Virus genome (UHGV): UHGV-0166849
Reading direction: 5' to 3' (one strand)
Length of the DNA stretch: 11,802 nt
Source: a virus
Shown: piece by piece, positions 3,096 to 11,752 of the stretch
How the letters are laid out: the number at the start of each line of letters is the position of its first letter
Numbering within the stretch: position 1 is the first letter of the stretch
Made by a program: the position numbers and the translations under genes
Notes under the pieces: model-generated
Told to the model about the DNA's origin: nothing
Databases searched by the model: none
What the model saw: the letters and a program-made list of their open reading frames with translations, nothing else

Positions 3096-4019
3096 TCAGT
3101 AGTTATGTACTGAAGGAGGTAATTCTTTGTTCTTAAGTCTTATCCATGCTGAAAGGTTTGTTGGTCCGTCTGGCTCATTAATATCAACATCTCGTGTATG
3201 GTTGATTAAAACATCTCTCGCCATTCCGATAACATACGAGAACTCATAACCGCAGTCATGACATCTGCCGGAATAGTTCGATTGAATTTGTTTCAGCGCC
3301 GGATACAGTTCGCGGAATAATGCCTGTGAGCGGTTGGCATAATCCCATAGCCATACAAGGCTGTTTGCTTCTTTTGCAGAAAGCTCGTTGGTTTTCTTCT
3401 CTTGTTTGCCAATGAACTCACCTTCAAGTGGAACTCGAGCTGCAAGTGATAGTGCTTCGGTAAACTGCTCCTCACTGATTTCTTTGTACGAACATCCAAA
3501 ATGGGATTTCAGTGACGACCACATGGTGATCATCGCCTTAGCCCGTTTTTCTTTTGGCAGAGACTGACCGCGACTCATGACGAGTTGTTTAATGGCTTCC
3601 TGCTGTTCAGTGGTGATTTTACCCGGCAACGCCTTTTTAGCTTTGCGTGGGTTAACTACATAGCCTTTAGTCCAGTACTCGTAGAGCACATCGTCACACT
3701 CTTCCTGATACTGGATTACCTTGTCGCGGATTTCAGGGCGGACTTTGTTTGGCTGAATGCTTGAAAGCCAAGCCGCAAACTTACGAAAGGCAAGGCATAT
3801 CATTAACTGTTTACCGCCAGCAGAAGGTATTTCGATTTCCGAAATACCTTTGACAAATCTCTGTTTTAATTTAACAAATTGAGCAGCCCAAACCATACCC
3901 ATGCCTTCTACAACGGGTTTCATAGGAACGTAAGGTTCATTGTTAATGCTGACCAAAAAGAGATTTGTTCCGTGGAATGGAACGTTGATTGTATGTTCTG
4001 CAATTGCTACACTCGTCAT
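3096..4019 (-). CDS. ant: Antirepressor Ant (307 aa), AntA/Bro-N-like N-terminal domain
   Basis: ORF in track. Sits downstream of arc and upstream of the tailspike, as in P22 immI. N-terminal region (..VPFHGTNLFLV...PMKPVVEGMGMVWAAQ..KL) looks like phage antirepressor N-domains. SD AGGA ~8 nt upstream of the ATG at 4019. Confidence 0.75.
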   Translation of the reverse strand: MTSVAIAEHTINVPFHGTNLFLVSINNEPYVPMKPVVEGMGMVWAAQFVKLKQRFVKGISEIEIPSAGGKQLMICLAFRKFAAWLSSIQPNKVRPEIRDKVIQYQEECDDVLYEYWTKGYVVNPRKAKKALPGKITTEQQEAIKQLVMSRGQSLPKEKRAKAMITMWSSLKSHFGCSYKEISEEQFTEALSLAARVPLEGEFIGKQEKKTNELSAKEANSLVWLWDYANRSQALFRELYPALKQIQSNYSGRCHDCGYEFSYVIGMARDVLINHTRDVDINEPDGPTNLSAWIRLKNKELPPSVHNY

Positions 4020-4090
4020 GTCGTTAATTCCTATGCGTGGTTTTACGATACCGAAGCCCTGACTGTTCCCGCAGTTGGGGCTTCACTGTT
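4020..4090 (+). ncRNA. Candidate sar-like antisense RNA (~70 nt) complementary to the ant RBS and start region
   Basis: Plus-strand promoter-like hexamers inside the 5' end of ant: TTGATT (3985-3990), 17-bp spacer, TACACT (4008-4013), placing a start near 4020. Downstream is an imperfect hairpin GAAGCCC...GGGCTTC (about 4051-4081) followed by TTTTT (4085-4089). This matches the known P22 arrangement of sar RNA opposite the ant RBS. Prediction from sequence only. Confidence 0.3.
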
Positions 4091-4304
4091 TTTGTAAGTC
4101 ACTGTAGCTATAAAGCCACTGACCACTCATTTTTGATTTGATTGACTCTACTGAATCACGGCAAGGAATGATTCCACCTGACATCATTCTGATCTCCGTA
4201 AATTCACCACTCCTTATCGATTCAATGCCATCAATGTTAACTAAAGATTTACCTCTACCAAGTGCATTCTCATAGCCAATCTCATCAACCTCAATAAACT
4301 TCAT
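4083..4304 (-). CDS. Hypothetical protein (73 aa) located between arc and ant
   Basis: ORF in track. Its ATG overlaps the arc stop codon (ATGA at 4301-4304, minus strand), which suggests translational coupling. SD-like GAGGGGA upstream. No recognisable motif. As I recall P22 immI, there is no gene between arc and ant. Confidence 0.45.
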   Translation of the reverse strand: MKFIEVDEIGYENALGRGKSLVNIDGIESIRSGEFTEIRMMSGGIIPCRDSVESIKSKMSGQWLYSYSDLQKQ

Positions 4305-4459
4305 ACCGTTATCCCCTCTCTCTTCAGGCTGTCCAACACTCGCTTGTAAATCTCAGAGTTAACAGATCGCCCGTTCTCTTCAGCTACCTTGCGCACCAAA
4401 TCCAATACTTCTTTAGGCCACCGCAAATTGAACTGCGGCATTTTTCTTGCACCTTGCAT
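4301..4459 (-). CDS. arc: Arc transcriptional repressor (52 aa, ribbon-helix-helix)
   Basis: Not in the ORF track (below its size cutoff). Manual translation of the minus strand gives MQGARKMPQFNLRWPKEVLDLVRKVAEENGRSVNSEIYKRVLDSLKREGITV, near-identical in its first 40 residues to P22 Arc as I recall it (MKGMSKMPQFNLRWPREVLDLVRKVAEENGRSVNSEIYQRV...). SD AGGGGA upstream of the ATG at 4459. Confidence 0.85.
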   Translation of the reverse strand: MQGARKMPQFNLRWPKEVLDLVRKVAEENGRSVNSEIYKRVLDSLKREGITV

Positions 4460-4481
4460 GTCATCCCCTTTGTGGTATTAC

Positions 4482-4508
4482 CGTACTACTATTGAAAGCG
4501 TACTACTA
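4482..4508. repeat. Two copies of a 10-bp direct repeat CGTACTACTA (4482-4491 and 4499-4508) flanking TTGAAAG; candidate operator for Arc and/or Mnt
   Basis: Read directly from the sequence. The repeats overlap the predicted P_ant -10 and transcription start region and flank the P_mnt -35. The TAGTAG core on the opposite strand is reminiscent of the P22 arc operator half-sites. Confidence 0.4.
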
Positions 4509-4520
4509 CCGTCCTAGCAT
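4492..4520 (+). promoter_or_regulatory. Candidate P_mnt promoter, overlapping back-to-back with P_ant
   Basis: On the plus strand: -35 TTGAAA (4492-4497), 17-bp spacer, -10 TAGCAT (4515-4520). Followed by SD AAGGAG (4533-4538) and the GTG start of mnt at 4545. Confidence 0.4.
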
Positions 4521-4525
4521 GTCAA
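4497..4525 (-). promoter_or_regulatory. Candidate P_ant promoter (drives arc, orf73, ant)
   Basis: On the minus strand: perfect -35 TTGACA (4525-4520), 17-bp spacer, weak -10 TACGCT (4502-4497). Lies in the divergent arc/mnt intergenic region, as in P22. Confidence 0.45.
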
Positions 4526-4544
4526 CAAATAAAAGGAGAATGAC

Positions 4545-4787
4545 GTGGCTAGAAATGATCCGCAATTCAACGTAAGAATGCCAGATGAGATAAAACAGCA
4601 ACTTACGCATATTGCTGCAACAAATCGTCGCTCTATCAATGCTGAAATTATTGCCGCTATCCAATTGTGGATAAAGATACATAAAGAGCAGGTAATACCT
4701 TCAAGTAGTCAGCAACTGACCAAGTCAGAGAAAGAGGCTCTTGATGTGACTATTGATGTTCTACAACGTGTAAGGGATGGGAAATGA
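4545..4787 (+). CDS. mnt: Mnt repressor (80 aa, ribbon-helix-helix, Arc/Mnt family)
   Basis: ORF in track with GTG start. N-terminus MARNDPQFNVRMP...RRSINAEI matches P22 Mnt as I recall it (MARDDPHFNFRMP...GRSMNSEL). Divergent from arc, with a strong SD AAGGAG 6 nt upstream. Confidence 0.85.
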   Translation: MARNDPQFNVRMPDEIKQQLTHIAATNRRSINAEIIAAIQLWIKIHKEQVIPSSSQQLTKSEKEALDVTIDVLQRVRDGK

Positions 4788-5056
4788 AACCAACGAACAA
4801 AGAAATTTTCGAGCAAATAAAAGTACTTCCTTTCACTATTGAGCTTGCAAAGAGATATGAAGCTTATTATCCGTTTACCGAAGAGTCGATACGGATAGAG
4901 ACATATGATGAGTTTGGTCAGTGCTCTATCTGGCTTGGCTTTGAAGACCAATTTGCTATACGTGATGCTTTTGGAAATTGGAGAATGGCTACAGCTGAAG
5001 AATGTATTGATCTCAGAGGTGGCAACCTTCCAGGTTCAATGACATTAGTTAATTAA
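4784..5056 (+). CDS. Hypothetical acidic protein (90 aa), translationally coupled to mnt
   Basis: ORF in track. Its ATG overlaps the mnt stop (ATGA at 4784-4787). Net acidic (15 D+E versus 9 K+R). No recognisable motif. Confidence 0.55.
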   Translation: MKPTNKEIFEQIKVLPFTIELAKRYEAYYPFTEESIRIETYDEFGQCSIWLGFEDQFAIRDAFGNWRMATAEECIDLRGGNLPGSMTLVN

Positions 5057-5080
5057 CGGCGTACATGGCAGGTATGTAAA

Positions 5081-5266
5081 ATGAATAATAAACCAATGTC
5101 TAACGAAGAGTTGCAGCGCGAGTTAAAGAAACTTCATAAACTGGTATCACTTATCTACTCCAAGTTGCCACCAGATGCTCGACAAGCTGTTTTTGATGAA
5201 CTAACAAGAAGCGGAGATAGGGATGATCTGGATACTGCTTCTCGTATCAATAGCTACCGTTTTTAA
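5081..5266 (+). CDS. Hypothetical protein (61 aa)
   Basis: ORF in track. Weak SD (AGGT) 7 nt upstream. Its last 20 nt overlap a convergent minus-strand small ORF. Coding status uncertain. Confidence 0.35.
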   Translation: MNNKPMSNEELQRELKKLHKLVSLIYSKLPPDARQAVFDELTRSGDRDDLDTASRINSYRF

Positions 5267-5426
5267 TAGCCTCCAGAGTCGAATCGTAACGACTGCGCAT
5301 TGATTTTGCTGATTTCTCAAGCTCTTCTGCTTGATGCTTCAGTGATTCAAGATGAAGCTCTCCAAGATGGCACTTCATCACTTTGATGGTGCGTTCAAGG
5401 TTTTCCACACGTTCTTCTATGGTCAT
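5247..5426 (-). CDS. Hypothetical protein (59 aa), helical and charged; not in the ORF track
   Basis: Manual translation gives MTIEERVENLERTIKVMKCHLGELHLESLKHQAEELEKSAKSMRSRYDSTLEAIKNGSY. Strong SD AAGGA 6 nt upstream of the ATG at 5426. No obvious promoter between it and the upstream terminator, so expression is uncertain. Confidence 0.35.
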   Translation of the reverse strand: MTIEERVENLERTIKVMKCHLGELHLESLKHQAEELEKSAKSMRSRYDSTLEAIKNGSY

Positions 5427-5458
5427 GGTATTTCCTTAATCTTTAAAGTAGAGAAGAT

Positions 5459-5490
5459 AAAAAAACCCACCTGACGGTGGGTTAATTTTT
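5459..5490. terminator. Bidirectional rho-independent terminator
   Basis: A-run (5459-5465), perfect 8-bp stem AACCCACC/GGTGGGTT with loop TGAC (5464-5483), then AATTTTT (5484-5490). The A-run on one side and T-run on the other allow termination in both directions. Confidence 0.65.
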
Positions 5491-5508
5491 GCATTTACCT
5501 GGGCCATA

Positions 5509-5537
5509 TTGACTACTCATAAAATGAGATCAATATT
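5509..5537 (+). promoter_or_regulatory. Candidate sigma70 promoter for the small gene at 5574, with an inverted repeat in the spacer
   Basis: -35 TTGACT (5509-5514), 17-bp spacer, -10 AATATT (5532-5537). The spacer contains the inverted repeat CTCAT-AAAA-TGAG (5517-5529), a possible operator. Confidence 0.35.
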
Positions 5538-5573
5538 TAATCGCCCAATAACGGGTGTATGTTGAGGTATATC

Positions 5574-5753
5574 ATGGCGAAAAAACCAGGTGAAAACACA
5601 GGAAAAAACGGCGGAATATACCAAGAAGTTGGCCCACGCGGCGGTAAGAAAGACAATTTTGCAACCGTCAAGGACAACGAAAGGCTTCCACCAACAACAA
5701 AGCCAGGTCATGGCTGGGTATTGGATAAGCGAACTCCAGACAGCAAAAAGTAA
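5574..5753 (+). CDS. Hypothetical small basic protein (59 aa; alternative start at 5559 gives 64 aa)
   Basis: ORF in track. SD GAGG (5564-5567) 6 nt upstream of the ATG at 5574. Gly/Lys/Pro-rich sequence MAKKPGENTGKNGGIYQEVGPRGGKK...LPPTTKPGHGWVLD. I have a vague sense this resembles a conserved small-protein family but cannot name it. Confidence 0.55.
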   Translation: MAKKPGENTGKNGGIYQEVGPRGGKKDNFATVKDNERLPPTTKPGHGWVLDKRTPDSKK

Positions 5754-5766
5754 TACTCAAGCCGGG

Positions 5767-6132
5767 TCACTCCGGCTTTTTGATATGTCGCTCGCAGAAC
5801 TCAACAAGCCTGCTCATTAAGTAGCAGTAAGTCTCATTGGCTCTTCCTGGTTCAACATCAACACCGACCCTTGAGCAGATATCGAATGCCATGTGAGCGC
5901 ACTCATGGGCAATAGTAGATAGTTTGCCATTGAACACGCCTATCACATGCAAAACACCATTCTCGCTGCTCATTGTATGAGACGCTCCGTTGGCGTCCGA
6001 GTCATGCACGTCAACGCCAAGTTTTTGATGCAGGCGTTGCCATTCTGGAAAGTCTCTACAAAACACAATTGTACCGCTCTCAAAGAGCGGAACGAGCATC
6101 TTTGGTACGTTTCCAATGTTAACTTTTTTCAT
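5767..6132 (-). CDS. Hypothetical HExxH-motif protein (121 aa); candidate mini zinc-metallopeptidase
   Basis: ORF in track starts at a TTG at 6171. I prefer the first ATG at 6132, which has SD AGGA ~5 nt upstream. Contains HECAH (aa 76-80) with Glu residues 14 and 20 aa downstream, consistent with a zincin HExxH...E arrangement. The overlapping plus-strand translation looks non-protein-like. Confidence 0.55.
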   Translation of the reverse strand: MKKVNIGNVPKMLVPLFESGTIVFCRDFPEWQRLHQKLGVDVHDSDANGASHTMSSENGVLHVIGVFNGKLSTIAHECAHMAFDICSRVGVDVEPGRANETYCYLMSRLVEFCERHIKKPE

Positions 6133-6162
6133 GGTATCCTGCTCAAAACTAAGGAGCTTGGT

Positions 6163-6552
6163 GTGAAGCAATTTCTTGCTGCTATGTTCTTATTCATATC
6201 TTTTGGGGCTACAGCAGAGTGCTGGGTCGTTGGAGATATGCGCGGAATAAGCTATTCAGAACGAAATAATTTCCATCCGGAAGAAGATGGTTTTAGTGGA
6301 ACATTCATCATTAAGACAAGCGGTGAAGATGCCAGCATCACATATTCTGGGACAGATGCGGGCGGCATGGCTTACAAAGCATTGTCTAAAAACTCCATCA
6401 TAGGAATCGGCGCGAATGGCGAAACTCAACGCGTTATCGACTCATGGGTAATACATCCTACTGGAACAGTTTTAATGTCAAAAACCATTTCTGGTTATGG
6501 GAATATGGATTCAACCAAAGCTTTTGTTGGAAAAGTAAAAAGAAAATGTTAA
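6163..6552 (+). CDS. Hypothetical secreted/periplasmic protein (129-aa precursor) with Sec signal peptide
   Basis: Start re-called to the GTG at 6163, with SD AAGGAG (6151-6156) 6 nt upstream. N-terminus MKQFLAAMFLFISFGATA|ECW has an n-h-c signal-peptide layout with an A-x-A cleavage site. The predicted mature protein has one Cys at residue 2 and one as the C-terminal residue. No lipobox. Opposite orientation to the late operon, at the position P22 uses for sieA. Confidence 0.6.
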   Translation: MKQFLAAMFLFISFGATAECWVVGDMRGISYSERNNFHPEEDGFSGTFIIKTSGEDASITYSGTDAGGMAYKALSKNSIIGIGANGETQRVIDSWVIHPTGTVLMSKTISGYGNMDSTKAFVGKVKRKC

Positions 6553-6576: not shown

Positions 6577-8418
6577 TTACTGCTGTGTTGCCTCAGTAGC
6601 AAGCAGCGGCCTGATGGCATTTGCAGCGTTACTCAACGCTCTTTCATAGGCTGGTGTTCCTGCTTTGGTGTTTGCCAGACGTAAGAGCGCATTCCTTGCT
6701 GCTTTGGACTCATACAAGCGCATCATTGCACCGAAACCAGCCTCAAGCCCCATTGATACGCCAAGAGTCGCAGTTGCGCCAATCGTCCTTATCCTGTTGG
6801 CTTGCGATTGCCCCGTCTGAGTTACTACATTTGCGGTGTCTGACCTTGCTGTTTGCTGCAGAACTTCATGAAGAGCATCAAGTTCTTTCATGTGCTTTCC
6901 AGAAAAAATAGTGTTGTAAATTTCACCGCCTGACTGAGATTTCAGCTTATTAACTTCAGTGATGAACTTGGCTGGAGAGTCACCGGCCTTTTCCGCTATT
7001 TTGCTGACGTAAGCTGCACGCATAGCATCTTTCCCTTTATCATCCAGTGCGCTCCAGATTCGTTTCACGTCAGATGGTTTTCTGCTTAATACAACGGTAT
7101 TTATAAGTTCAGGACTGGCTTCACTGCTTGCCTTGTTGAGTTTGTTAGCAATGTTTTTATTAAGCACCTTATTATAAACGTTTGCATAATCGGAATTTGC
7201 TTTAAGGTATTTTGCTGCGTCTGATGCACCGAGGTTTTTAGCAACTGCGTTACGAAGGTCTTTTGACATTGCATTCTCTACCATATTGGTAGCTGCTTTT
7301 GCCTGGTTGGGGAAGACCATAGCATCTCCCTGAACATTAGATCTAAATGCTGTTCTGTGCTGACGCAAGAGATCAAACGTAACATCCAAATCAGTTGCAG
7401 GGTTTGCTAATTCTTCACGTAGGTTACGCAAGGATGTAAGCAGGCTTTGATTGGCAGACGTCCCAAGTCGTTCCTGTCTTGCGATCGCTGTATTCAGAGC
7501 ATTCATGGTATTTGTGGTATCAACTGCGGCATTACCCATTTTATTGGTGACGTCATTGATAACAGCGCCAGCGGCATCCTTCCTCCCCCTTAACGTGGTG
7601 GTCAGAGATTTCACCACATCATCAGGGTTGTACTCACCAAAACGGTCAAAATAATTACTTACCAGCTTACTACGCGTTGCATATTGCTCCGCTCGCTTTG
7701 AGCCTGTCCCGAGCAAAGCCCCCTCGGCATCCTGAGTAAGGCCGCGAGTGAAAGCATTTTTCGGCGGGATAACATCAGATGTCATTGGTGTCACGCCCAT
7801 CGATTCTGATGTGGCAATTTTCTTCGCCACTTCTGGCGCAATATCACCTTTTATAGCCGTTATTCCACGCCCTATTCCCTTTGCTGCGGCGGAAAGAACA
7901 CCCTGAGCGGCAAGGTTAACTCCGGCATTTTTAGCTGCATTTTGTGCGAAATCGCCTTTCTGATTTGCGGCCTCTGCCAGTGATCCAATAGCCATGCTTC
8001 CTGCCGTTCCAACTCCTGGAACTAAATACCCACCAATTGTTTCACCGGCTTGTGCGTAGGGGTCTGTCGGTCTGTCTACTGGACGATAAACATCATCCAA
8101 AACCTTGGGTCCACCAAGCCCCTGACTGATTGCATTAATCAGACTTGCGCCACCCTGCAATACGTCAAATGGTATGTTTACCAGACCACGACCAGCCTGT
8201 TCTGCAATTTGCTCTGCACTTTGACCACCAGTGAGCCAATCGCCAGCTTGTTGCATCAATGATGGTTCTTCCCGTGTTGGTGCATTATTGGCCTGATTAA
8301 CTGTTTGTTGCTGAACAGCCTGACCAGCAAAATACTCATCAATGGCGGTGCCAATATCTTCGGTGCTCGTACCATCAGGAAAGGTAAATGTCTTACCGTT
8401 TGCAGTTACTTTCATCAT
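6577..8418 (-). CDS. Ejection (pilot) protein, P22 gp16-like (about 612 aa)
   Basis: ORF in track. Size and position (last gene of the gp7-gp20-gp16 series, immediately before the immI/accessory region) match P22 gene 16. Its start overlaps the gp20-like stop (ATGA). Confidence 0.8.
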
Positions 8419-10595: not shown

Positions 10596-11051
10596 CTATC
10601 TCCCGTGATTCAGGAAGTCGATTAGTTCTTCGCGTGTGGCGCTGTAAAACGTCACGTCATCCACGCCTTTGAAGTATTTTTTGATGGTTCCTACACGATT
10701 AAGGCCAATCATTGCGCAGTACATCTGACCGTGGCGGAATTTGCGTGCAGCGAACGATGTGACGCACTGAACGGTGGTGTTAGTCAGAATGTATCGCCAG
10801 AACGCCAGCCCGATTTCCTTGCTGAATCCGCGAACCTCTGGCAGGTACATGGCGTGGCAATCGAATGTAAGCGGCTGAATCTCCTGGTAGTAAACAATGC
10901 CGCCAAACTGACCGTGCACGTTAACCTCAAAGTAACGGCATTCAGGCTTGTAGTCGTATCCATCACCGTTGTTGCTTCCAGCAATAATGTCAGGGTGATT
11001 TCCTACTGCTTCTATCAGGTCGATGTTTCGCGTTGGTTTGAATGTAATCAT
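10596..11051 (-). CDS. P22 gp14-like protein (151 aa), assigned by position
   Basis: ORF in track. Lies between the tail needle and gp7-like genes, as gene 14 does in P22. Its ATG overlaps the tail needle stop (ATGA at 11049-11053). Assignment is by synteny only. Confidence 0.6.
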   Translation of the reverse strand: MITFKPTRNIDLIEAVGNHPDIIAGSNNGDGYDYKPECRYFEVNVHGQFGGIVYYQEIQPLTFDCHAMYLPEVRGFSKEIGLAFWRYILTNTTVQCVTSFAARKFRHGQMYCAMIGLNRVGTIKKYFKGVDDVTFYSATREELIDFLNHGR

Positions 11052-11752
11052 CAGTCAATCAGCCCATGTAATCTAAGTGCTGTTTCAAGCGCCAGAATAC
11101 GCTGCCGCGCCTGCTGCAAACCTGTAGCGAGAGCTGCGACTTCGGATTGTGTGTACGTAGTGCCGACAGTGTATGACTGGTTAGCGTTGAATGAGCCAAG
11201 AAGTGGCGTACCTGTGGCTGCAGTCCATCCGGTATTTCTTGCTCCAACAACCTGAATTCCATCAACTGAATATGATGTTTTTACATCCAGCGGTGACGCA
11301 AGAGACTGCAATTCGGTTACGGTTTTCGATACGTAATCACTCTTAATGCCAGAGACATCGTTTTCTACGTCATCCAGTCTTTGGTCAACAGTGACCAGAT
11401 GCGCCTGAATATCGATAACCTCATCCAGCAAGTAATCAACATCGCTACGCAGTACGACTATCTTCCCTTCGGCAGTTGTTAACCTGACCTCAAGTAGATT
11501 TATCGCTTTTGTGTTTGCGGTGATTCTTGCGTCGTGATCAGCCAGTTCGACATCCTGTTCATCGTTTTTCACCTGTGCATCGTAAGCGCCCTGACCAGCC
11601 TGATTTGCCTTCCCGGCAATTGCGCCGACATCAGCCCCCTGATTAATGACATACAACAGGTAAGACTGGCTGAAGATATTGCGTGGAAGGATTGATGTAT
11701 CGAGCCGCGTCGCCTGCACAATAACAGGAGTGTTGAGATTCGAATCCGCCAT
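11051..11752 (-). CDS. Tail needle protein, P22 gp26-like (233 aa)
   Basis: ORF in track. N-terminus [73 protein letters not shown] closely matches my memory of P22 gp26. Identical length, heptad-rich middle, correct position. Confidence 0.85.

What the first reader, a model, noticed from the sequence alone, without database searches (positions are those of the whole stretch)
5767..6132. 121-aa protein with an HExxH zinc-binding motif
HECAH (aa 76-80) followed by Glu at +14 and +20 fits a minimal zincin-type active site. Small HExxH proteins in mobile elements include repressor-cleaving ImmA/IrrE-like peptidases and metallopeptidase toxins. It is in the same orientation as the late operon and could be expressed late or constitutively.
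Basis: partly seen in the sequence, partly recalled or inferred. Interest (0 to 1): 0.6.

Follow-up and report, generated by a model that had tools for sequence, protein, structure and literature searches.

The report
Small phage zinc-protease-like protein HkcC
The 121-residue ORF is a real, selected gene (HkcC of phages P22 and HK620) from a large, uncurated family of tiny phage proteins that carry a conserved zinc-protease active site, but what it cuts, and why phages keep it, is still unknown.

Summary
Window 5767-6132 (-) encodes a 121-aa protein with HECAH at residues 76-80, E94 and E100. It is 99% identical to HK620 HkcC. The same ORF sits unannotated in the P22 reference genome, between sieA and orf59a.

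An exhaustive profile search finds 943 cluster representatives, almost all stand-alone proteins of 100-140 aa. In 139 diverse members H76, E77, H80 and E100 are 137-139/139 conserved, and Y104 is 134/139. E94 is not conserved (30/139). The site is therefore HExxH plus Glu at +19/+20, a gluzincin-type arrangement.

AlphaFold (pLDDT 91) gives a sheet, a helix, a helix carrying HExxH and a helix starting at E100. No curated family matches above threshold:
- SprT-like gives only sub-threshold hits.
- M78/ImmA gives none.

The gene always lies on the late-operon strand, in accessory positions. Phage Sf6 has no copy, so it is not needed for assembly. In its close subfamily it is nearly always paired tail-to-tail with the YjzC-like orf59a.

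Verdict: a probable zinc metallopeptidase of a new phage family, transcribed late, target unknown. The ImmA-like repressor-cleavage idea is not supported.

The parts
5767..6132 (-). hkcC-type gene, 121 codons plus stop: a stand-alone mini-zincin
   Evidence: ORF list and sequence. 99.2% identical to HK620 HkcC and to an unannotated ORF at P22 13861-14226. PHROG 1365, E 1.7e-39. 29 synonymous vs 3 non-synonymous variant codons among 37 alleles.
5893..5907 (-). Codons 76-80, HECAH. Proposed roles: H76 and H80 as metal ligands, E77 as general base
   Evidence: H76 138/139, E77 137/139 and H80 138/139 in diverse representatives. Inside predicted helix 71-88.
5821..5838 (-). Codons 99-104, NETYCY. 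E100 is the proposed third metal ligand at the start of the second helix. Y104 is a nearly invariant residue four positions after it
   Evidence: E100 139/139, Y104 134/139, C103 116/139, N99 92/139. H80-to-E100 spacing is 20 in 77 and 19 in 49 of 139. Helix 100-116 in the model.
5851..5853 (-). Not part of the conserved site
   Evidence: E in only 30 of 139 representatives.
6137..6140 (-). Shine-Dalgarno-like AGGA, 4 nt before the ATG
   Evidence: Read from the sequence.
5759..5778 (.). G+C-rich hairpin overlapping the stop codon, shared by the convergent hkcC and orf59a genes. In P22 it is annotated as the mnt terminator, in HK620 as a bidirectional terminator
   Evidence: Terminator scan. 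P22 and HK620 annotations.
5574..5753 (+). orf59a homologue (59 aa, YjzC-like), the convergent partner gene of the cassette
   Evidence: 98% identical to P22 orf59a. Weak Pfam YjzC hit, E 1.3e-3. PHROG 3202. Adjacent to hkcC in 70 of 80 IMG/VR loci and in 4 siphovirus-type prophages where hkcC is only 59-63% identical.
6102..6132 (+). Equivalent of the annotated P22 sieA promoter. It lies inside hkcC codons 1-10 and points away from hkcC toward the gene in the sieA slot
   Evidence: P22 annotation 13861-13891 mapped onto the window. Homology to P22 ends at window 6165. The simple promoter scan did not detect it here.

Best explanation
The ORF is the hkcC gene of P22-like phages. It most likely encodes a cytoplasmic, stand-alone zinc metallohydrolase, most probably a peptidase, built on the smallest workable zincin scaffold.

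Proposed chemistry (inferred, not shown): H76 and H80 on the first long helix and E100 at the start of the next helix hold one zinc ion. E77 activates the water. The nearly invariant Y104, one turn after E100, either helps position a ligand or stabilises the reaction intermediate. The substrate would lie against the sheet next to the HExxH helix, as in other zincins.

Expression (inferred): the gene has no promoter-like site of its own. It lies on the sense strand of the late operon, so it should be made late, from antiterminated P-late transcripts that read through the 'ant moron' to the tailspike gene.

Role: it is an accessory gene, not an assembly or lysis gene. I think its target is most likely a host protein, or a protein of a competing element, cut during late infection. 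The target is unknown.

Shown here: the gene is real and selected, the motif is conserved, the fold prediction is confident, and the placement is consistently late-strand and accessory.

Inferred: metal binding, catalysis, timing and the kind of target.
For: - Motif conservation: H76, E77, H80 and E100 are kept in 137-139 of 139 representatives, and Y104 in 134. H-to-E spacing is 19-20 in 126 of 139.
- Fold: AF2 pLDDT 91.3, pTM 0.85, with the order strand-strand-helix-strand-strand-helix(HExxH)-helix(E100).
- Independent predicted models of distant phage relatives superpose at TM 0.7-0.82.
- Most of the weak sequence hits in the PDB are zinc peptidases aligned on the active site: the single protein hits thermolysin and neutral protease with HExxH and NE in register (6 of 9 hits, E 0.09-0.66). 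The wider A4 profile hits only zinc peptidases (9 of 9): myroilysin, BMP1/tolloid and M35 (E 0.02-0.75).
- Purifying selection: 29 synonymous vs 3 non-synonymous variant codons.
- The gene lies on the same strand as late genes in every context examined.
- No sigma-70-like site lies upstream on its strand.
- P-late transcripts cross the ant moron, which 'has no function in morphogenesis or lysis' (PMC2629481).
- Sf6, a complete P22-like phage, has no family member. The best E-value of the family HMM against its six-frame ORFs is 0.57.
- By inspection of the sequence there is no signal peptide or membrane segment.
Against: - I could not read the model's coordinates, so the ligand geometry was not measured.
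- No expression, metal-content or activity data exist. P22 RNA-seq exists but was not analysed for this strand.
- HExxH hydrolases that are not peptidases exist, from my own knowledge (for example YgjP-like enzymes).
- The biological target is a guess.
Confidence: 0.6

Rival explanations
1. It is a divergent SprT/Wss1/Spartan-type protease that works on DNA-bound or DNA-crosslinked proteins. It would act, for example, on proteins sitting on phage DNA before packaging, or as an ArdC-like anti-restriction device.
For: - SprT-like (PF10263) is the only Pfam family that recurs among members: 17/33 and 22/145, best E 1e-4.
- The best Foldseek PDB hit is the SPRTN protease domain 6mdx (E 0.13, probability 0.54).
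- A few relatives are auto-named 'SprT-like family protein'.
- Several distant members carry Lys/Pro/Ala-rich basic C-terminal tails that could bind nucleic acid.
Against: - All Pfam hits are below the gathering score, and in the one matching member examined individually (P0263) the hit covers only the HExxH helix.
- hhalign of the family profile against E. coli SprT (YggI) gives 3.5% probability and does not align the active site.
- From my own knowledge, SprT, Wss1 and Spartan use a third His. This family has no conserved His after HExxH and an invariant Glu instead.
- There is no zinc ribbon.
- The window protein has no basic tail.
Confidence: 0.12
2. It is an ImmA/IrrE-like (M78) anti-repressor protease that cleaves an immunity-region repressor (Mnt, Arc, C2 or a resident prophage repressor).
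For: - The gene sits in the immI region ('ant moron') beside mnt, arc and ant.
- From my own knowledge, M78 enzymes also use HExxH plus Glu.
- Two 'IrrE protein' entries appear among the BFVD hits at E about 0.04.
Against: - 0 of 145 members hit Peptidase_M78 at E 0.1 or better.
- The gene is kept at 99% identity in HK620, where mnt and ant are only remnants and no arc gene is annotated.
- Homologues 59-63% identical sit between tail-chaperone and tape-measure genes. Others sit between lysis and terminase genes. There is no consistent repressor neighbour.
- Mnt and Arc are ribbon-helix-helix proteins, not the XRE/ImmR type paired with ImmA (my own knowledge).
- It lies on the late strand rather than with early or immunity genes.
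Confidence: 0.05
3. It is one half of a two-gene cassette with the convergent YjzC-like orf59a. The small protein, made from the prophage, would be the inhibitor, substrate or functional counterpart of the protease, made late.
For: - The pair, sharing one hairpin, is found in P22, HK620 and the window.
- It is found in 70 of 80 IMG/VR P22-like loci.
- It is found in all four siphovirus-type prophages, where the zincin has diverged to 59-63% and the partner to 76-81% identity, in a quite different genomic site.
- In isolated phages the two genes occur nearly one to one: 52 records each at 95% identity or more.
- orf59a lies downstream of mnt on the prophage-expressed strand.
Against: - 10 of 80 loci keep hkcC without the partner although downstream sequence is present.
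- The locus of the 78%-identical homologue (L099) and all more distant subfamilies lack the partner.
- A YjzC-family gene occurs alone in a Clostridium phage.
- Co-inheritance of a small cassette that shares a terminator would give the same pattern without any functional link.
- No interaction test was possible.
Confidence: 0.12
4. It is the protease that processes a virion or ejection protein, or it is itself packaged and injected. One candidate substrate is gp7, whose N-terminal trimming I recall from the P22 literature.
For: - It lies next to ejection-protein genes 7, 20 and 16 in P22-like phages, and next to the tape-measure gene in siphovirus-type prophages.
- It is on the late strand.
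Against: - Sf6 has gp7, gp20 and gp16 homologues but no family member.
- The ant moron is absent from several P22-like phages and is described as having no role in morphogenesis (PMC2629481).
- In phage epsilon34 (and, by tblastn, in L and ST64T) a ~38-40% identical relative lies elsewhere; in epsilon34 it is next to the decoration-protein gene.
- To my knowledge it is not among the known P22 virion proteins.
Confidence: 0.04
5. The motif is a chance string, or the ORF is not a gene.
For: - The ORF is not annotated in the P22 reference record.
- HExxH alone is short.
Against: - There are 943 cluster representatives with the motif conserved.
- Purifying selection is clear.
- A confident fold is predicted.
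- The ORF is annotated as a CDS in HK620, by PGAP and in many phage records.
Confidence: 0.01

Closest known systems
Gluzincins in general (zincin clan MA(E): HExxH plus a downstream Glu). Thermolysin (M4) is the closest in motif spacing
   Same: - HExxH sits on one helix and the third ligand Glu at the start of the next.
- H-to-E spacing of 19-20 residues matches M1 and M4 enzymes (spacing in those families from my own knowledge).
- The window protein aligns to thermolysin with HExxH, NE and LVEF in register.
   Different: - 121 aa against about 316 aa, with no C-terminal domain.
- Thermolysin's Asp four residues after the Glu is Tyr here.
- The similarity is not significant (E 0.09-0.66), and the family profile does not retrieve M4 at all.
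- Cytoplasmic rather than secreted.
Minigluzincins (proabylysin and projannalysin, archaeal 105-110-aa soluble zincins related to M48/M56 catalytic cores; recalled from Lopez-Pelegrin et al. 2013, not re-read here)
   Same: Same concept: a stand-alone protein of about 110-120 aa that is nothing but the zincin core with HExxH plus Glu.
   Different: - No sequence hit in PDB searches at E 10 or better.
- Different host range: phages of bacteria rather than archaeal chromosomes.
- Self-inhibition by a C-terminal tail was not tested.
SprT-like / Wss1 / Spartan (Pfam PF10263)
   Same: - Small HExxH domain common in mobile elements.
- Recurring weak hits to the active-site helix.
- The best Foldseek PDB hit is SPRTN.
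   Different: - Below threshold everywhere.
- hhalign probability is 3.5% against E. coli SprT.
- Glu in place of the third His.
- No zinc ribbon.
ImmA/IrrE (M78, COG2856) anti-repressor proteases of phages and ICEs
   Same: A mobile-element HExxH plus Glu protease. In P22 it lies in an immunity region.
   Different: - No Pfam hit in 145 members.
- No conserved partner repressor.
- About half the size.
HK620 HkcC, the unannotated P22 ORF, and PHROG 1365
   Same: The same gene: 99.2% identity, the same position between the sieA slot and orf59a, and a full-length match.
   Different: Nothing material. [quoted passage not shown]

Membership tests
Zincin / gluzincin superfamily (clan MA(E)) | HExxH on an alpha-helix, conserved across the family | tested here: met
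   H76 138/139, E77 137/139, H80 138/139. Predicted helix 71-88.
Zincin / gluzincin superfamily (clan MA(E)) | Third metal ligand is a Glu on the following helix | tested here: met
   E100 139/139, spacing 19-20 in 126/139. Helix 100-116 starts at E100. The role as a ligand is inferred.
Zincin / gluzincin superfamily (clan MA(E)) | Mixed beta-sheet plus backing helix packed on the active-site helix, with fold similarity to solved zincins | tested here: inconclusive
Zincin / gluzincin superfamily (clan MA(E)) | Binds one zinc ion and hydrolyses peptide bonds | not testable with these tools
   Needs purified protein.
Thermolysin family M4 | Significant sequence similarity, the NExxSD motif and a two-domain ~316-aa architecture | tested here: not met
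   E 0.09-0.66 only. Profiles A3 and A4 do not retrieve M4. The position after the Glu motif is Tyr, not Asp. Only 121 aa.
SprT-like (PF10263) / Wss1 / Spartan | Pfam gathering score reached | tested here: not met
   No hit for the window protein. Sub-threshold hits in 17/33 and 22/145 members, best E 1e-4. In P0263, the matching member examined individually, they cover only profile positions 63-88.
SprT-like (PF10263) / Wss1 / Spartan | Profile similarity to a bona fide member, and a third His ligand after HExxH | tested here: not met
   hhalign against E. coli SprT gives probability 3.5% and does not align the active site. No conserved His downstream, with an invariant Glu instead.
ImmA/IrrE (Peptidase_M78, COG2856) | Pfam or sequence match to M78 | tested here: not met
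   0 of 145 members at E 0.1 or better. No PDB sequence hit.
ImmA/IrrE (Peptidase_M78, COG2856) | Encoded next to its substrate repressor (XRE/ImmR type) | tested here: not met
   Neighbours vary: sieA-slot genes and orf59a in P22-like phages, tail genes in four prophages, lysis and terminase genes in others.
Minigluzincins (proabylysin / projannalysin) | Detectable sequence or structural similarity to the solved members | tested here: not met
Minigluzincins (proabylysin / projannalysin) | Stand-alone ~105-120-aa catalytic core with HExxH plus Glu | tested here: met
   Nearly all of the 150 listed of 943 representatives are 100-140 aa single-domain proteins. This is a resemblance in design, not evidence of common family.
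PHROG 1365 / HkcC | Full-length significant match | tested here: met
   E 1.7e-39 over residues 1-121. 99.2% identical to HK620 HkcC.
Known anti-phage defence proteins (PADLOC-DB) | Match to any model | tested here: not met
   0 families at E 10 or better.

The most novel reading that the evidence does not exclude
HkcC is a late-made effector protease that disables a host immune or stress protein, or a protein of a competing phage. In its close subfamily it would work as a timed pair with the prophage-expressed YjzC-like Orf59a. That would make the hkcC/orf59a cassette a new kind of mobile two-gene module that hops between the late operons of unrelated phages.
Probability: 0.15. Interest if true: 0.75.

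Novelty: new variant of a known kind. Interest (0 to 1): 0.45.

Why it matters
P22 and HK620 are classic model phages. This gene has nevertheless been carried as 'unknown' since 2001 and is not even annotated in the P22 reference record.

It turns out to represent a large phage family (943 clusters at 50% identity) of about the smallest zinc-protease-like proteins known, with no Pfam, NCBIfam or PDB entry. About 5% of complete E. coli genomes carry this very allele in prophages.

If the protein is active, it gives:
- a minimal zincin scaffold for enzymology;
- a tractable candidate for a late-acting phage effector, because a clean deletion in P22 should be viable.

If it proves inert, little is lost. 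The finding is a solid annotation improvement rather than a surprise.

Tried and rejected
- Curated libraries gave no usable hit. Pfam, NCBIfam and PADLOC on the protein returned only spurious lantibiotic hits on 'HEC'.
- The A3 profile against the PDB gave only unrelated noise. The wider A4 profile gave weak hits, all to metallopeptidases.
- The Foldseek afdb50 library was unavailable, so the AlphaFold database could not be searched.
- A second metal or disulphide site formed by C25, C78, C86 and C103 is rejected. Only C103 is widely conserved, and the others swap freely with Leu, Val and Ala.
- I first mislabelled window ORF 5247-5426 as orf59a. tblastn showed that the true orf59a homologue is 5574-5753.
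- A role in SieA exclusion is rejected. The published single-copy sieA construct, carrying only 85 bp upstream of sieA and so only the first ~55 bp of hkcC, is sufficient for exclusion (PMC10883804).
- A plasmid anti-restriction role is unlikely. Only 8 plasmid records match, most of them phage-sized.
- Literature searches for hkcC, PHROG 1365, SprT-like anti-defence proteins and phage HExxH proteases found no functional study.
- The longest members were inspected for fusion partners. I found only low-complexity tails and one 283-aa protein with an unannotated N-terminal half.
- dN/dS against the 59-78% identical homologues could not be computed because synonymous sites are saturated.

Full report
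**What the window is.** The ORF map shows the late region of a P22-like (Lederbergvirus) phage on the - strand:
- needle gp26 (11051-11752), gp14, and ejection proteins gp7, gp20 and gp16 (6577-8418);
- a variable stretch;
- mnt (4545-4787, +), arc, an extra small gene, ant (3096-4019) and the tailspike (50-2995).

Megablast confirms this. P22 and its relatives match at about 97.6% over parts of 4400-6165. The finding therefore lies in what Villafane et al. call the 'ant moron', between gene 16 and gene 9 (PMC2629481).

**The observation.** Window 5767-6132 (-) runs from ATG to stop and gives 121 aa. AGGA lies 4 nt before the ATG. The six-frame translation of the window holds only one other HExxH, in a non-genic frame. 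A single HExxH is not significant by itself, so the test is conservation.

**Identity of the gene.**
- tblastn against phage records finds the protein at 99.2% identity in HK620, where it is annotated hkcC (hypothetical).
- It is found at 99.2% identity in P22 at 13861-14223, where the reference record BK000583 annotates no CDS. That record shows only the sieA promoter on the other strand at the ORF's 5' end and the mnt terminator at its 3' end.
- The literature lists hkcC and 59a as 'two genes of unknown function' in P22 (PMC2629481) and as 'Unknown' in UAB_Phi20 (PMC4837284).
- PHROG 1365 (unknown function) matches full length at E 1.7e-39.
- PGAP calls it a hypothetical protein.
- The region is present in 282 of 5426 complete E. 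coli genomes and is rare on plasmids.

**It is a real, selected gene.**
- Among 82 P22-like loci there are 37 alleles. They differ from the window by 29 synonymous and only 3 non-synonymous codons, none of them at a motif position.
- Homologues 59-78% identical have saturated synonymous sites, with non-synonymous differences of 0.13-0.29 per site.

**The family.**
- A word-seeded search found 32 relatives. A profile search found 325, all named hypothetical apart from one automatic 'SprT-like family protein' label.
- An exhaustive HMMER profile search of 1.84 billion cluster representatives found 943 at E 1e-3 or better and 265 at E 1e-10 or better. Of the 150 best that are listed, almost all are stand-alone proteins of 100-140 aa.
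- In a MAFFT alignment of 139 of these representatives, each less than 50% identical to the others, conservation is as follows:

| Residue | Conserved in (of 139) |
|---|---|
| H76 | 138 |
| E77 | 137 |
| H80 | 138 |
| E100 | 139 |
| G49 | 137 |
| Y104 | 134 |
| G90 | 127 |
| C103 | 116 |
| N99 | 92 |
| E94 | 30 |

- The spacing from H80 to E100 is 20 in 77 sequences and 19 in 49.
- The conserved site is therefore HExxH-x(18-19)-E. This is the gluzincin pattern, with the spacing typical of M1 and M4 enzymes (that comparison is from my own knowledge).
- The other cysteines of the window protein (C25, C78, C86) swap freely with aliphatic residues, so a second metal site is not indicated.

**Structure.**
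- AlphaFold2 with a 33-sequence alignment gives mean pLDDT 91.3 and pTM 0.85.
- The elements are strands 11-13 and 21-25, helix 28-37, strands 49-56 and 59-66, helix 71-88 carrying HExxH, and helix 100-116 beginning at E100. This is the order expected of a minimal zincin core.
- I could not read the coordinates, so the ligand geometry remains unmeasured.
- Against viral predicted structures there are 27 matches at E 1e-3 or better with TM up to 0.82. All are uncharacterised proteins from very different phages (Pseudomonas N4-like phCDa, Ralstonia, Achromobacter, Erwinia jumbo, Eggerthella and crAss-like phages). A few are auto-named 'SprT-like' or 'Metalloprotease'.
- The best Foldseek PDB hit is the SPRTN protease domain at E 0.13.
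- The afdb50 library was not available.

**Sequence comparison with known families.**
- Pfam, NCBIfam and PADLOC give nothing for the protein.
- phmmer against PDB sequences puts thermolysin and neutral protease first, with HExxH, NE and LVEF aligned in register, but at E 0.09-0.66.
- The narrower family profile (A3, 33 sequences) retrieves only two unrelated, non-significant chains.
- The wider family profile retrieves only zinc peptidases (myroilysin, BMP1/tolloid, an M35 enzyme), again non-significantly at E 0.02-0.75, and not thermolysin.
- Scanning family members one by one, SprT-like is the only recurring Pfam family: 17/33 and 22/145, best E 1e-4. It is always below threshold, and in P0263, the one matching member examined individually, it covers only the active-site helix. 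No member touches Peptidase_M78.
- hhalign of the family profile against E. coli SprT, fetched from the K-12 genome, gives 3.5% probability and does not align the active site.
- My reading: the protein belongs to the zincin superfamily by motif and topology. It is not a member of M4, SprT-like, M78 or the solved minigluzincins.

**Genomic context and expression.**
- The gene is always on the strand of the late genes.
- In P22-like phages it lies after gene 16 and a divergent gene in the sieA slot.
- In four siphovirus-type prophages (Klebsiella, Rosenbergiella and two metagenomic) it lies between the tail-chaperone genes and the tape-measure gene.
- The 37-40% identical relatives in epsilon34 and the metagenomic P0072 contigs, and the 36% relative in mEp044, lie between the lysis cassette and the terminase or decoration-protein genes.
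- More distant members lie upstream of terminase. One is directly after a Tad2-like gene, and two follow ParB_N and ABC-like ATPase genes.
- The promoter scan finds no sigma-70-like site for it. Only 30 bp separate its ATG from the start of the divergent gene.
- P-late transcripts are known to read through the ant moron into gene 9 (PMC2629481). Late expression is therefore the reasonable inference, though I have not seen it shown.
- I confirmed that Sf6 has no family member anywhere in its genome. The best E-value of the family HMM is 0.57. This argues against a role in assembly or in processing ejection proteins.
- sieA alone suffices for exclusion (PMC10883804), so HkcC is not part of that system.

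**A conserved neighbour.**
- The true orf59a homologue is window 5574-5753 (+). It is 98% identical to P22 orf59a and is a 59-aa YjzC-like protein.
- It converges on hkcC, and one hairpin (5759-5778) overlaps the hkcC stop codon.
- The pair is present in 70 of 80 IMG/VR loci and in all four siphovirus-type prophages. There the zincin has drifted to 59-63% and the partner to 76-81% identity.
- In isolated phages the two genes occur nearly one to one.
- Ten loci, the 78%-identical homologue's locus (L099) and every more distant subfamily lack the partner.
- A YjzC-family gene stands alone, antisense in the head operon of a Clostridium phage.
- The pairing is either a functional module or just a small cassette inherited together. 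I could not distinguish the two.

**How it most likely works.** I commit to a cytoplasmic zinc metallopeptidase:
- H76, H80 and E100 bind the metal.
- E77 is the general base.
- Y104 assists.
- The substrate lies along the sheet.
- The protein is made late from read-through transcripts and acts as an accessory factor on a host or competitor protein.

Motif, selection, predicted fold and placement are shown. Metal binding, catalysis, timing and target are inferred. Confidence in the enzyme assignment is about 0.7, and in the whole statement about 0.6.

**Rivals.**

| Rival | Confidence |
|---|---|
| SprT/Spartan-like DNA-linked protease | 0.12 |
| Functional pair with Orf59a | 0.12 |
| ImmA-like repressor protease | 0.05 |
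| Virion-protein processing | 0.04 |
| Chance motif or non-gene | 0.01 |

**Novelty and score.**
- The ORF itself is already known, without a function.
- New here: it represents a very large, uncurated, phage-specific family of minimal gluzincin-type proteins; the catalytic quartet is invariant; it fits none of the described small zincin families; and in its close subfamily it travels with a YjzC-like gene.
- I rate this a new variant of a known kind, with interest 0.45. It is a useful and testable annotation in a model phage, but not surprising to a protease or phage specialist until a target is found.

Noticed in passing
window 6163 (GTG) or 6184 (ATG) to 6552, + strand: The slot that holds sieA in P22 and hkcB in HK620 holds a different gene here. 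It encodes a protein of about 122-129 aa with a signal-peptide-like N-terminus (MKQFLAAMFLFISFGATAEC). It matches PHROG 2651 (unknown function) and has no Pfam hit. Homology to P22 stops at 6165, right at its start codon. The 30-bp spacer, the ribosome-binding site and the annotated sieA promoter inside hkcC codons 1-10 therefore seem to be a fixed socket into which different prophage-expressed cargo genes are swapped.
   Followed up: partly
window 5574-5753 (+); L006 6384-6563; L097, L098, L100; L104 2486-2653: P22 orf59a is a YjzC-like small protein (Pfam E 1.3e-3, PHROG 3202). It stays convergent with hkcC across P22-like phages and siphovirus-type prophages. A YjzC-family gene also sits antisense inside the head operon of Clostridium phage phiCT9441A. 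This suggests that YjzC-like genes are recurrent antisense morons in late operons.
   Followed up: partly
P22 BK000583 13861-14226 (L001 862-1227): The P22 reference record has no CDS for hkcC although the ORF is intact and 99.2% identical. The older P22 sequence AF217253 matches at only 71.9%, which I take to reflect the sequencing errors that were later corrected.
   Followed up: partly
window 4784-5056 (+), 5081-5266 (+), 5247-5426 (-), hairpin 5464-5483: Between orf59a and mnt the window carries extra small ORFs that P22 lacks, plus a strong bidirectional hairpin terminator. Only the 61-aa ORF has a PHROG match (16466, unknown function). The window's Mnt is only 45% identical and its Ant 54% identical to those of P22.
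   Followed up: no
window 4083-4304 (-): A 73-aa ORF (PHROG 11805, unknown function, E 3e-52) sits between arc and ant and overlaps the arc stop by 4 nt. In P22 arc is followed directly by the sar/ant region.
   Followed up: no
L004 3001-3585 (mEp044 gp72); proteins P0148, P0159, P0214, P0232: Some distant family members carry acidic and then Lys/Pro/Ala-rich basic C-terminal tails, for example ...PAKKGKRKPKAK...VPRVMSFKRG. These could tether the zincin to nucleic acid or to a partner.
   Followed up: no
L092 3085-6570; L095 622-2637: In two unrelated metagenomic phage contigs the zincin homologue follows ParB_N and ABC-type ATPase-like genes. In L092 it overlaps by 4 bp the end of a Tad2-like (PF11195) gene, upstream of the terminase. 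This is a hint of an accessory or counter-defence gene neighbourhood.
   Followed up: no
L099 3964-4885: In a P22-like contig whose hkcC homologue is 78% identical, the sieA slot holds a 109-aa gene (unannotated, same size and position as HK620 hkcB) plus a 178-aa ClpP-family (PF00574) gene on the opposite strand. This is another example of cargo swapping beside hkcC.
   Followed up: no
phage records UAB_Phi20, ST-32, ST160, SE1Spa, SW-70: Several P22-like phages have two matching places each. They apparently carry both hkcC in the ant moron and a second, more distant family member; in epsilon34 a ~40% identical relative lies near the terminase or decoration genes. The two subfamilies therefore seem to coexist in one genome. 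The second places were not inspected.
   Followed up: no
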